Shown in pieces: positions 8,587 through 62,300 of a stretch of DNA of 64,000 nt. The DNA is taken from NCBI GenBank assembly GCA_030324005.1, contig JARDVH010000124.1:22906085-22970084 (forward strand), read 5' to 3'. Below the pieces are notes generated by a model. It worked only from the letters and a program-made list of their open reading frames with translations, had not been told where the DNA came from and searched no databases. The number at the start of each line of letters is the position of its first letter. Position 1 is the first letter of the stretch. The stretch comes from Negaprion brevirostris (taxonomy: Eukaryota). Both the position numbers and the translations under genes were made by a program.

Positions 8587-8688
8587 AACAATATGTGCTG
8601 GAGATGGGGACCTAGCATCCTTCAGTCCTTGCCTACCCTGTAGGCTCCCTGCCTGTACATCAATCAATGGCCATTTCATCTGCAGGTA
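8587..8688 (-). CDS. TCF7L2: Internal coding exon of transcription factor 7-like 2 (TCF7L2/TCF-4), between the beta-catenin-binding domain and the HMG box
   Basis: The minus strand translates to YLQMKWPLIDVQAGSLQGRQGLKDARSPSPAHIV, nearly identical to the recalled human TCF7L2 segment YLQMKWPLLDVQAGSLQSRQALKDARSPSPAHIV. TCF7L1 has a shorter, different middle. The exon is 102 nt, with acceptor ttttgtttcccatttccag (AG at 8690-8689) and donor gtaagt (8586-8581). Confidence 0.96.
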
Positions 8689-47966: not shown

Positions 47967-48073
47967 TTTGATAATGTTTATTATCAAATAAATCGGTTGG
48001 ACTANNNNNNNNNNGTGTTTGTCAGACTTTTTACTGTGTTTACCCCAGTCCAACGCCGGCATACCCACATCAT
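47967..48073. mobile_element. Truncated copy of the Penelope-like repeat seen at 59086-59322
   Basis: tatcaaataaatcggttggact...tgtcagactttttactgtgtttaccccagtccaacgccggcatacccacatcat is the reverse complement of the left part of 59086-59322. Confidence 0.75.
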
Positions 48074-58548: not shown

Positions 58549-59085
58549 GGGATATAGTTTTTATATATAGGATGGGTATAGTTTATATATGCACCTTTGC
58601 TAAAGTTCTGCAAACTGTAAGACTTTTAAGTAAAAATCAATTCTTTGCTCTCATGGTTGCCCCATCCGAATCCCAAGCTTTAGGTTCCACACCAGATACC
58701 AATATTTACAACACAAACTGGGAACCTTTAGGAACAGCTATGCTCAATCCTGTATTATGTATGGTGCTGGTAGTTTTGACACAGAGTAGGAAAATTCCTC
58801 ATATCTTTGACATGCAATGACCTTCATTTTGAATGATTGACTGTGAAGTTATTTCTGCGGATGTATTGACAATGCTAAGTTTGGCTCAGCGGCTGGCACC
58901 ATCACCTCTGAATCACGAGACTGTTGGTTTGAGCTCTACTTCAGAACTTCAGCAATCCATTGCAGTGCTGAGGGAATGCTTCATTCATCGTTGTGAGCTC
59001 AGTGCTTTAGATGAAGCATTAAGCCAAAGTTCTTCTCNNNNNNNNNNAGATGCACTAATGTCCATCCCCTGCTCAGTTTTAACCA

Positions 59086-59322
59086 TGATGTGGAGATGCC
59101 GGTGTTGGACTGGGGTAAATACAGTAAGAAGTCTGACAACACCAGGTTTAAGCCCAACCGATTTATTTGATAGTAAGCTCACAAGCTTTCGAGGTTTCCC
59201 TCTTCGTCAGGTGGATGGCGAGTCATCCATCTACCTGACAAAGAAGGAAAACTCGAAAGCTTGTAAGTTTACTATCAAATAAATCAGTTGGACTTTAACC
59301 TAGTGTTGTCAGACTTCTTACC
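59086..59322. mobile_element. Penelope-like (PLE) pseudo-LTR-derived non-autonomous insertion, arranged as an inverted repeat with a 12-bp target-site duplication
   Basis: TSD cagttttaacca at 59074-59085 and 59323-59334; approximately 95-bp inverted arms at 59124-59218 and 59227-59321; each arm has a hammerhead-like motif. Confidence 0.75.
59180..59213 (-). ncRNA. Minimal type I hammerhead ribozyme-like motif (PLE-associated)
   Basis: Minus-strand RNA reads CAC CUGACGA A GAGG-GAAA-CCUC GAAA GC UU GUG: CUGANGA and GAAA core boxes, 4-bp helix II with GNRA loop, 3-bp helix I (CAC/GUG), palindromic AAGCUU in place of helix III. Confidence 0.6.
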
Positions 59323-62300
59323 CAGTTTTAACCAACCAATACTCCTCCAACCCCACACCCAATAAAACAAAAAGTGGTTATGCAGTCATTCACTAACACT
59401 ATTTTTGGAATCTTGCTGTGTAAAAATTGAGGTTCTACACACTGGTTTCCATCTATATATACACAGTGTATGGGAGGTATTTCAGATAGTTTTGAAAATT
59501 AAATAAACATAAGTTTCAATGAATCATTCAAATTTTACAGTCAGCTTGAGTCAGAAACAAACATTACACTGGTGGAAATAAATACTGCAAAATACCAATT
59601 TTTAAAAAAAATAAAACTAGTATTGAATTTCAGCACCTGATTACGTTGTCTTAGGTTGGGTAACTTCAGTATCGTTGTCAGGGTTCCAAACTATGACAAA
59701 AGCATATTGATCTGGCAAATTTTTGCCTGAGGTTTCTCCCCATGCTTTTGGCACTGATGGGGGAAGGGGCCAAGTGCTATTAGAGCTACCATGTTCTCTC
59801 TAAAGAGAAAGGAACAAGAAGAAGCGCAAGGGTTTCAAGTTGTCAAAGTGACAGCAGCCATGGTTTTGGACCGCTGATGACTTCATTTTTGTTGTTGTTC
59901 AAATAAAAAAGCCAGAGGCTTGCTTGGCAAATCTAACTTTCTATGAAGAACTGATTACGTCCTATGAAACACCTCAAAATGTTTTCTTATAGTAAAAGCA
60001 TTATCTAACTATAAGCTCTTGTTGACAGTAGGAGTTCCAAATTGAATGTTTTTTCCAATGAGTACGTATATTTGTGTTTCTTCAAACACAAGACCAAGGA
60101 GGTGACAGGAACTGTCCCACCCTACTACACAACCTAACTTGACCAATTGTTATATAAAAACATTAAACTAATTCACTACAAATTAGTTCCACATGACAAT
60201 TATTAAAGAGGTCTCAAAATATTGAGGTTGTTTTTGTTTCAAATTATGCCAATTGATTGGATGATGAAGTGTACATTCATTGAATAATGAGGAAGAAGAA
60301 TCAATATTCAACAACATCATGGAGGACTTAAACTCTATGGGTGCTATTACAAAGGCCACACAGGCAGCTCTAGCGCAGAGCCTGAAATTCATAGCTTTCC
60401 AAATGTACTTGAAGCACAAAAATCTCAGAGAAACATATGAACTGTTAAAAAAAAAACTGCACACACAATATTCTTTAAGAAATAAATACTTTGGTACAAT
60501 TTTTGCACAAGATTAAGCCATGTTACTCAATGAATTAACTTGCATTGAGAGATAAATATATTTTTATATTTTTTTCATCATTACACAAAACATAAGCTAG
60601 TTAACATGTACACTTTTCTTATACATCAATATACACTGAGGTTAATTTAAAAGATTAGATGAGTTTATATTAACTTTTTTTTTTACAGTCATTGAGATTG
60701 CAGTAAAACTGACATCATGTAACATCCAGTTTAAGTTTCGACAGAAACTTGCATAAAATCCTATCATACTTTTGCAATTAGTGAATTAAACAGTCTAACT
60801 TTGGAACTACACCTGCATCACTATTGTTCTGATATAAAATGACTGAAAAATGCCACGCTCCAGTATTTAGAACATTATCACAAGCTTGGCCAGGGTCCTT
60901 TTCTAGCAGGAATGTCGATATACGGAGCCCTAGAAACAATAACCATTATTTCTAGACATAGTCTTTAACACATTCTGGCTTTCAAGCAAGTTCAAAGATT
61001 CTACACTTTTGTATGTGTAAGTGCGTGAAGTACACAAATTGATTATGGTTATAAGGGAAAATGTATTAGCATCTGATTGCACGTAATTACTGGTCTCTAT
61101 AGAAATAATCTTGTTCCTATAATTTTCAATTTAGATTTTGAGCTCAATAGCAAGTAATCATGCTTATATATTATATATAAGCCCTTGCTTAATGTTATCA
61201 TGTGCAAACAAACTCTGTTGCATCTCCCTATTACTCAGAAAACAAATAAAGCTCTTAAAGAGAAGAGAAAAACCTCATCCCACTGGACTGAAGCAACTAA
61301 GTTGCAATACAATAACGAGAGAATCCAAACCTGTACATTGTTTCCATTGCACATTAACTAATACTGCACTGAAGGGAAACTCTGTTGGGACATTTATTCG
61401 AAGTTCCTCATCAGGTTAGGAGGGTTCGTTAGAAGACGGTGTAAAAATATCAATGTGAATGGCTAGATTTTATTTCAAAAGCATGGACAGACTCATCTGA
61501 TAGGTTGCAACCAGTAACAATTTAATACAACTGAAAATGCTGAAATGCCAGAACTTAGTTGGCAAAGGAACGACAACAAAATATCTAAAGGTTTTATTTC
61601 ACTGACAATGCGAAGTTAGTTGGTAAAAAAGGGGGACATATTTAAAGAACATAATCTTACAGAATTTTTGAATTGCAAGCATCAATTGCATGAGTAGTGA
61701 AATGGTACAGTGACTCAAAAAGCATTTAACCAAATGGCATTAGTGGTCAAAGGACACGTAGAAAGTAACAGTGAGGATAATCACACTGTACAGGGGACTT
61801 CTTTTATTTTTTAAAAGTATATATAAATTGTTACCTATGTTTTACAGTTCAAAAAACACCTGAACTCAAGTTATGATCTATGCCAAAGATTTATAGCAAT
61901 CAGATCCCAACAGATATACAAGATAAAATATACTGCCTGTGATCCTACCACTTGTAAAAGGAGGGCAAAAANNNNNNNNNNNNNNNNNNNNNNNNNNNNN
62001 NNNNNNNNNNNNNNNNNNNNNNNNNNNNNNNNNNNNNNNNNNNNNNNNNNNNNNNNNNNNNNNNNNNNNNNTAATGCTGGTCAAAATTTAAAACATATTA
62101 AAGAAAAAAAGAAATCAAACATTCAGCACTGCTCCCATCGATGTCTGCTCATCATAACATCATTGTCATCGCTGCAACAGGCAACATTAGAAGATAAAGC
62201 CATGTATATTCAAGATTCCTTCCAAGACATTTCTCAGCTATAAGAGAATTAAAACGTGTTGCAAAAGTCAAGAAAAACCTCGATGCAAGGAACAATCTTA

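What the first reader, a model, noticed from the sequence alone, without database searches (positions are those of the whole stretch)
59074..59334. Penelope-type fold-back insertion carrying two hammerhead-ribozyme motifs inside the TCF7L2 intron
Seen: a 237-bp insert flanked by a 12-bp direct repeat (cagttttaacca), made mostly of two approximately 95-bp inverted arms. On the minus (pre-mRNA) strand the left arm reads CAC-CUGACGA-A-GAGG GAAA CCUC-GAAA-GC-UU-GUG, a minimal hammerhead core with a GNRA-capped helix II and a palindromic AAGCUU replacing helix III. The right arm gives a plus-strand copy (59232-59265) with a damaged core (CUGACAA) and helix II, but a compensatory helix I (UAC/GUA versus CAC/GUG). 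Known: Penelope-like retroelements carry minimal hammerheads in their pseudo-LTRs, which are thought to work as dimers through a palindromic loop III. Inference: this is a short, non-autonomous, ribozyme-bearing mobile unit. It would place either a self-cleaving motif or a long dsRNA hairpin (possible ADAR/Dicer substrate) in the TCF7L2 pre-mRNA. The extra A after CUGANGA and the near-absent helix III make monomeric activity doubtful.
Basis: partly seen in the sequence, partly recalled or inferred. Interest (0 to 1): 0.7.

Follow-up and report, generated by a model that had tools for sequence, protein, structure and literature searches.

The report
Inverted Penelope retrotransposon scrap in intron
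This is a short, head-to-head double copy of the end of a very common shark Penelope-type retrotransposon that landed in a TCF7L2 intron; its built-in hammerhead ribozyme is predicted to be locked inside a long hairpin, so it is likely an ordinary decaying transposon remnant.

Summary
A 237-bp insert with 95-bp inverted arms and a 12-bp duplication lies in a TCF7L2 intron. The duplication is a true target-site duplication: two related organisms have the empty site with one copy. The insert is two 5'-truncated ends (pLTRs) of a shark Penelope-like retroelement joined head to head. The family has at least 13,580 exact hits to a 3' 26-mer. Relatives run into a GIY-YIG endonuclease and a reverse transcriptase, with the Neptune-type cysteine linker. 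The hammerhead is a normal PLE minimal hammerhead: helix II covaries across copies, and the 'extra A' is the published norm. It is not a self-copying unit, since junctions differ from copy to copy. The UAC/GUA 'compensation' occurs in no other copy. The two motifs cannot dimerise, because they lie on opposite strands. In TCF7L2 pre-mRNA the antisense arm is made first, and forming the ribozyme is predicted to cost about 46 kcal/mol. The arms decay at a neutral-looking rate. This layout is described for PLEs in print. Verdict: ordinary fossil, new member of a known kind.

The parts
59074..59085 (.). left target-site duplication (its last A also fits the element's first base)
   Evidence: single copy at the empty site in runs X12 and X14
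59086..59123 (-). PLE 'tail' (38-39 nt), the element's far 3' end, on this arm only
   Evidence: 30-40 bp tail described in PMC8557442 and PMC11167929
59124..59225 (-). tail-side arm: 5'-truncated pLTR, sense on the pre-mRNA strand
   Evidence: 91% identical over 137 nt (with tail) to L066, whose pLTR follows the ORF end
59180..59213 (-). minimal type I hammerhead with intact core: helix I CAC/GUG, core 59210-59204, extra A 59203, helix II 59202-59191, predicted cut between 59183 and 59182
59163..59168 (-). AAUAAA in the pLTR, conserved in the family, predicted to be paired in the hairpin
59219..59226 (.). head-to-head junction and hairpin loop, different from the junctions of other copies
59227..59321 (+). 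inverted short arm: 5'-truncated pLTR ending at the family's second fixed 3' end, no tail
59232..59265 (+). decayed hammerhead copy (G8>A at a CpG, helix II broken), antisense in the pre-mRNA
59323..59334 (.). right target-site duplication
8587..8688 (-). next downstream TCF7L2 exon found in the window (host gene context; exon identity recalled)

Best explanation
It is a single old insertion of a shark Penelope-like retroelement (likely Neptune clade), made of two 5'-truncated pLTR ends joined head to head between 12-bp target duplications, and it is likely a neutral fossil whose hammerhead is predicted to stay locked in a hairpin in TCF7L2 pre-mRNA. Shown: the family, the RT and GIY-YIG link, the TSD and empty site, two fixed 3' ends about 39 nt apart, copy-specific junctions, and arms that share subfamily variants. 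Inferred (about 0.6): the GIY-YIG nicked both strands about 12 bp apart; each 3' end primed reverse transcription on the same element RNA, one at the tail end and one at the inner start site; both cDNAs stopped after 100-140 nt and were joined. Inferred (about 0.9): in the intron the antisense arm is transcribed first and pairs with the ribozyme as it emerges, so there is no cleavage, and the arms drift apart by neutral mutation.
For: Copy number: 13,580 exact hits to a 3' 26-mer, 1,830 to a 31-mer just 5' of the HHR, 2,271 to the ORF end, and 611 head-to-head places with both HHR starts within 30 nt; reversed-pattern controls 0. ORF link: L036 and L066 join the ORF end to this pLTR subfamily. 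L122 holds RT motifs (RVT_1 E 3.8e-5), the endonuclease end and a sister-subfamily pLTR with HHR in one locus. GIY-YIG in L107, E 0.0018. Homologues 62-83% identical in shark proteins. L128 and L140 have the same inverted pLTR in front of ORF fragments, spanning about 1.9-2.0 kb. 3' ends are bimodal: 36 inner, 26 tail, 10 other of 72. Tail on one arm in 37 of 40 pairs. Arms share minority variants: 39 against 14.2+-3.7 in 23 pairs and 106 against 38.7+-5.4 in 30 new pairs; 0 of 5000 shuffles reached either. Empty site in organisms D and E; contigs run from the flank into the element in B and C. The ribozyme fold costs +45.7 kcal/mol and P(helix II) is 2.5e-13. The arms differ at 10 of 95 sites, more than the 6-8% flank divergence to species that lack the insert.
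Against: Both Pfam hits lie below the curated cut-offs, on broken ORFs, and no RT tree was built. The loci holding RT belong to a sister subfamily (77-86% identical to this arm); only the ORF end is tied to this subfamily directly. Most fold-back pairs were picked by similarity to fold-back queries, which biases tail and length counts (unselected: 16 of 17 with one tail, 7 of these from a tail-based search). A few pairs carry different subfamily variants on the two arms (L015, L114), which needs two templates or later change. The insert appears shared with organisms B and C, which fits fixation by drift but does not exclude retention. Folding is equilibrium modelling of naked RNA; the anole PLE ribozyme is protein-assisted (PMC11167929). 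Twin priming is not distinguished directly from antisense self-priming (PMC3846280).
Confidence: 0.9

Rival explanations
1. A dedicated non-autonomous hairpin element (SINE-, MITE- or retrozyme-like) that is copied as a 237-bp unit.
For: The top hits to the insert are nearly all 220-290 bp fold-backs with the same ends; 611 places join just 5' of the HHR.
Against: Those hits were selected for that layout. Junctions are distinct in 22 of 23 and 28 of 30 pairs. Among the first 100 positional hits I count 10 head-to-head pairs within 2 kb, with inner distances of 22-1048 bp (window: 146); 6 of the 10 are too short to hold both HHRs. Simple truncated copies are common.
Confidence: 0.03
2. A functional intronic ribozyme that cuts TCF7L2 pre-mRNA, like the domesticated amniote RECK-type hammerheads.
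For: The sense-strand core is intact, as in 48 of 92 motifs; helix II forms in the isolated arm (P 0.96); it is sense to the pre-mRNA.
Against: The hairpin blocks the fold at every transcript length tested. Helix I is weak even alone (P 0.05). Helix III needs a partner with a 4-bp duplex (-2.5 kcal/mol), and the second motif is antisense and broken. The insert is absent in organisms D and E. PLE min-HHR monomers showed no cleavage in PMC4209133.
Confidence: 0.02
3. The hairpin is a used dsRNA substrate (ADAR editing or endo-siRNA) that affects TCF7L2 splicing or helps silence the family.
For: A stable duplex of about 95 bp is predicted in the pre-mRNA. Inverted Penelope copies yield siRNAs in Drosophila (PMC3681739 passages). 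Hundreds or more such hairpins exist.
Against: The arms are not kept matched (10 of 95 differ, no compensation). The insert lies about 16 kb and 50 kb from the nearest exons found. Incidental editing would be no surprise and would not be a function.
Confidence: 0.05

Closest known systems
EN+ Penelope-like elements, Neptune clade (Craig et al. 2021, PMC8557442; Arkhipova et al. 2013, PMC3846280)
   Same: RT then C-terminal GIY-YIG with two Cys inside the motif; CX2-5CxxC linker; pLTR with HHR; inverted 5'-truncated copy; 30-40 bp tail on one end; variable TSD.
   Different: This copy has no ORF sequence left, only two pLTR stubs. The target is not a (TA)n microsatellite. The clade is assigned by motif, not by tree.
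PLE minimal hammerheads (Cervera and de la Pena 2014, PMC4209133)
   Same: Type I core, extra base between 9 and 10.1, G10.1-C11.1 pair, palindromic 15.2-16.2, no helix III, high variability within the genome; opposite-strand pairs 100-700 bp apart were noted in Schistosoma.
   Different: Helix II is only 4-5 bp here (7-8 bp in Schistosoma). Sharks were not named in the sections read.
Poseidon of Anolis carolinensis (Frangieh et al. 2024, PMC11167929)
   Same: Two RT start sites delimit the tail; both DNA strands are cut and extended. This would account for the two 3' ends seen here.
   Different: Penelope/Poseidon clade without the Cys linker. The main text read does not treat inverted insertions.
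Non-LTR retrozymes (bioRxiv 10.64898/2026.07.22.740005)
   Same: Short, non-coding, PLE-derived, with a type I HHR.
   Different: Retrozymes are head-to-tail tandem arrays; this is a head-to-head pair, which cannot form the dimeric ribozyme in cis.
Conserved intronic hammerheads of amniotes such as RECK (PMC6155905 passages)
   Same: A type I HHR in the intron of a vertebrate gene.
   Different: Those are deeply conserved; this one is lineage-limited, minimal, decaying and predicted to be masked.

Membership tests
EN+ Penelope-like element | RT followed by a C-terminal GIY-YIG endonuclease in one ORF | tested here: met
   In family loci, not in this copy: L122 RT motifs plus EN end plus pLTR; L107 GIY-YIG E 0.0018; Pfam scores below cut-off
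EN+ Penelope-like element | [quoted passage not shown] | tested here: met
   Read in L107, L099 and shark homologues; definition
EN+ Penelope-like element | pLTR with HHR directly after the ORF | tested here: met
   L036 and L066 are 90-91% identical to the window arm
EN+ Penelope-like element | Optional 30-40 bp tail, usually on one end | tested here: met
   38-39 nt here; bimodal ends, 36 and 26 of 72; one tail in 37 of 40 pairs
EN+ Penelope-like element | Variable-length TSD and 5' truncation with inversion | tested here: met
   Exact 9-15 bp repeats in 11 of 27 and 17 of 37 copies; empty site
EN+ Penelope-like element | RT groups with PLE and telomerase RTs in a phylogeny | not tested
   No reference set was fetched; the PDB search gave no significant hit
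Neptune clade | CX2-5CxxC motif between RT and EN | tested here: met
   C-X4-C-X2-C in L107 and in P0001, P0005, P0008; the motif is shared with Nematis
Neptune clade | Placement in the Neptune clade by tree | not tested
   No tree was built
PLE minimal hammerhead | CUGANGA, GAAA and UH core with N7 and H17 free | tested here: met
   92 motifs: N7 C64/T19/A6; H17 T45/A36/C5/G1; G8>A follows C in 16 of 17 cases, i.e. CpG decay; 25 of the 92 were selected on the 5' letters
PLE minimal hammerhead | Extra base after A9, G10.1-C11.1 pair, palindromic 15.2-16.2 | tested here: met
   A 88, G 86, C 78, G 88 and C 84 of 92
PLE minimal hammerhead | Helix II covariation | tested here: met
   Pair 2 GC45/AT23, pair 3 GC60/AT18; it also holds in the 41 motifs not selected on HHR letters. 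It reflects a few subfamily changes, not independent events
PLE minimal hammerhead | Self-cleavage as a dimer or with protein | not testable with these tools
   Needs a bench assay
Non-LTR retrozyme | Head-to-tail tandem units, each with an HHR | tested here: not met
   Head-to-head pair only
MITE or fixed non-autonomous unit | Fixed internal structure and length across copies | tested here: not met
   Copy-specific junctions and a continuum of lengths
Domesticated intronic hammerhead | Deep orthologous conservation | tested here: not met
   Empty site at 6-8% flank divergence

The most novel reading that the evidence does not exclude
Shark Neptune fold-backs form an Alu-like layer of hundreds to thousands of intronic dsRNA hairpins that are edited or diced, silence their own family and tune host pre-mRNAs such as TCF7L2. 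Their one-tail, same-template arms also record twin priming by a dimeric Penelope enzyme in vivo.
Probability: 0.1. Interest if true: 0.55.

Novelty: new member of a known kind. Interest (0 to 1): 0.17.

Why it matters
As a locus it matters little: it is one of hundreds of similar remnants. The family is a usable resource. Many short fold-backs with readable TSDs, two fixed 3' ends and same-template arms could test twin priming against antisense self-priming, which PMC3846280 leaves open. The insert is also a presence/absence marker among related sharks. My searches of the held library found no paper on shark PLE hammerheads: one search gave one review, whose only 'shark' refers to the ribozyme's name, and the retrozyme preprint includes one chondrichthyan genome. 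Repbase and Dfam were not available, so the family may already be catalogued.

Tried and rejected
Rfam: no hammerhead family at E<=10; MIR841 (63 bits against a gathering score of 200) and mir-745 only reflect the hairpin. No RNA holder was listed by the run search, so expression and editing were not examined. A tail-arm GC versus short-arm AT bias in query-selected pairs (63 vs 33, p 0.003) did not replicate in 16 unselected pairs (35 vs 43) or 30 new pairs (64 vs 66); rejected, along with ideas of cDNA deamination or template editing. Pfam scans of the thumb and linker pieces gave no significant hit; L104's endonuclease piece gave none and L099's only E 0.32; one RT reference was in the wrong frame (L136). 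A PDB search with the RT gave no significant hit. Run X19 did not cover the site; X23's contig also starts at 59323 but its loose letters were not shown; X6's contigs stop short of the insert. No earlier scan finding matched. Dropped before counts: duplicate loci; 7 of 47 pairings that joined separate insertions or were undecidable; 2 of 39 new loci without a pair; 52 of 144 anchors that lacked the upstream match, which also removed the window's own right arm from the 92-motif set.

Full report
Observation. The minus-strand RNA folds into one long hairpin at -157 kcal/mol, z -19. The hammerhead letters are present, but the bare pattern is at chance frequency in the window (8 against 6.8 expected), and Rfam reports no hammerhead. 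The window lies between TCF/LEF exons on the minus strand. Exon 1 best matches TCF7L2, and one 102-bp exon lies at 8688-8587 (its identity as a TCF7L2 exon is recalled). The insert is about 16 kb below the nearest upstream exon found and about 50 kb above the next.

Family. A DNA search of the own genome gave 5,579 candidates; the 40 scored places matched at about 80-89% identity besides the window itself. Exact patterns give lower bounds: 13,580 hits for a 3' 26-mer, 1,830 for a 31-mer just upstream of the ribozyme and 2,271 for the ORF end, with reversed controls at 0. Walking upstream reaches an ORF end in L036 and L066, which are 90-91% identical to the window's arm. Further upstream lie a GIY-YIG domain with two internal cysteines and a C-X4-C-X2-C linker, and then RT motifs. 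L122 holds RT, endonuclease end and a sister-subfamily pLTR in one locus. Pfam scores on these broken frames are significant but below the curated cut-offs. The closest proteins are from sharks, 62-83% identical. The linker motif marks Neptune or Nematis (PMC8557442, introduction and passages read); no tree was built.

Architecture. Copies end at two fixed sites about 39 nt apart: 36 at the inner site, 26 at the tail end and 10 elsewhere, of 72 ends from loci not picked by their 3' end. In head-to-head pairs the tail is on one arm in 37 of 40 and 30 of 37; most of these loci were selected by fold-back queries. Exact 9-15 bp end repeats were found in 11 of 27 and 17 of 37. Junctions are copy-specific (22 distinct of 23; 28 of 30). 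Spans of unselected pairs run from 109 to 2,006 bp. Among the first 100 positional hits I count 10 pairs within 2 kb, with inner distances of 22-1,048 bp. So the 237-bp form is one point on a continuum, not a unit that copies itself. The arms of one insertion share minority variants far beyond shuffled pairing (39 against 14.2; 106 against 38.7; 0 of 5000 shuffles), so they likely come from one RNA; L015 and L114 are exceptions. This layout is described in print: an inverted 5'-truncated copy, a 30-40 bp tail and a TSD (PMC8557442 passages; PMC3846280 passages). Opposite-strand minimal hammerheads 100-700 bp apart were noted in Schistosoma (PMC4209133, parts 1-2 of 4 read).

Target site and age. 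In organisms D and E, contigs that follow the right flank continue into the left flank across one copy of the repeat (loose ends of X12 and X14). This confirms the TSD and an empty ancestral site at about 6-8% flank divergence. In organisms B and C, at 2-3% divergence, contigs run from both flanks into the element. Only X11's and X2's right-hand contigs reach the 31 letters that the tool asks for bridging, so sharing is likely rather than proven. The arms differ at 10 of 95 sites, 8 of them transitions and 2 at CpG; the mean for 23 pairs is 8.7%. There is no sign that pairing is being maintained.

Ribozyme. Across 92 motifs the core is conserved, while N7 and H17 vary as hammerhead rules allow (G at 17 once), and losses of G8 sit almost all at a CpG. 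Helix II covaries (GC45/AT23 and GC60/AT18), also within the 41 motifs not selected on ribozyme letters; these are a few subfamily changes. The extra A is present in 88 of 92 and is a published hallmark of PLE minimal hammerheads. The motif was therefore selected in the active element, not at this locus.

Mechanism. Inferred: both strands were nicked about 12 bp apart, and each end primed reverse transcription at one of two start sites; the two short cDNAs were then joined. This fits the anole Poseidon enzyme, which cuts and extends both strands and starts at two sites that delimit the tail (PMC11167929, parts 1-2 of 4 read). It also fits my finding that short arms stop where many non-inverted copies stop. 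The alternative, self-priming on an antisense template, is not excluded. In the pre-mRNA the antisense arm comes first. Forcing the ribozyme fold costs 45.7 kcal/mol, helix II has probability 2.5e-13, and it is absent in all four growing transcripts tested, whereas it forms in the isolated arm (0.96). The second motif is on the other strand, so no dimer forms in cis. These are models of naked RNA.

Rivals and novelty. A self-copying hairpin unit (0.03), a functional intronic ribozyme (0.02) and a functional dsRNA (0.05) are each unlikely, for the reasons listed. Inverted Penelope copies do yield siRNAs in flies (PMC3681739 passages), so incidental processing is plausible, but nothing here tests it. 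Retrozymes are tandem and differ (bioRxiv 10.64898/2026.07.22.740005, part 1 of 5 and passages; its supplements were not seen and may list chondrichthyan families). Intronic amniote hammerheads are deeply conserved and differ (PMC6155905 passages). Figures and supplements of these papers were not seen. Verdict: a real, ordinary Penelope-like fossil, a new member of a known kind, interest 0.17.

Noticed in passing
window 47977-48073 (+): A second, simple 5'-truncated copy of the same PLE subfamily with its tail lies in the same intron, broken by a 10-N gap and lacking the hammerhead.
   Followed up: partly
window 8688-8587 (-): A 102-bp exon with AG/GT borders, which I recall as the alternative TCF7L2 exon upstream of the HMG box.
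   Followed up: partly
L015, L114: The two arms of one insertion carry different subfamily variants, a hint of two RNA templates in some events.
   Followed up: no
L002, L011, L073: Fold-backs with the tail on both arms, 3 of 40 pairs.
   Followed up: no
L031-L060: Many copies abut assembly gaps just 5' of the pLTR, so inverted copies are probably under-counted.
   Followed up: no
proteins P0010, P0012, P0013, P0015, P0017: Annotated shark host-gene isoforms (NOXP20-like, septin 5a, CYP2C31-like, XRCC5, PPP1R12A-like) contain pieces of this PLE endonuclease: exonisation or annotation error.
   Followed up: no
family alignment, loop II: Loop II and helix II come in many variants shared by both arms of a copy, implying many source elements.
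   Followed up: partly
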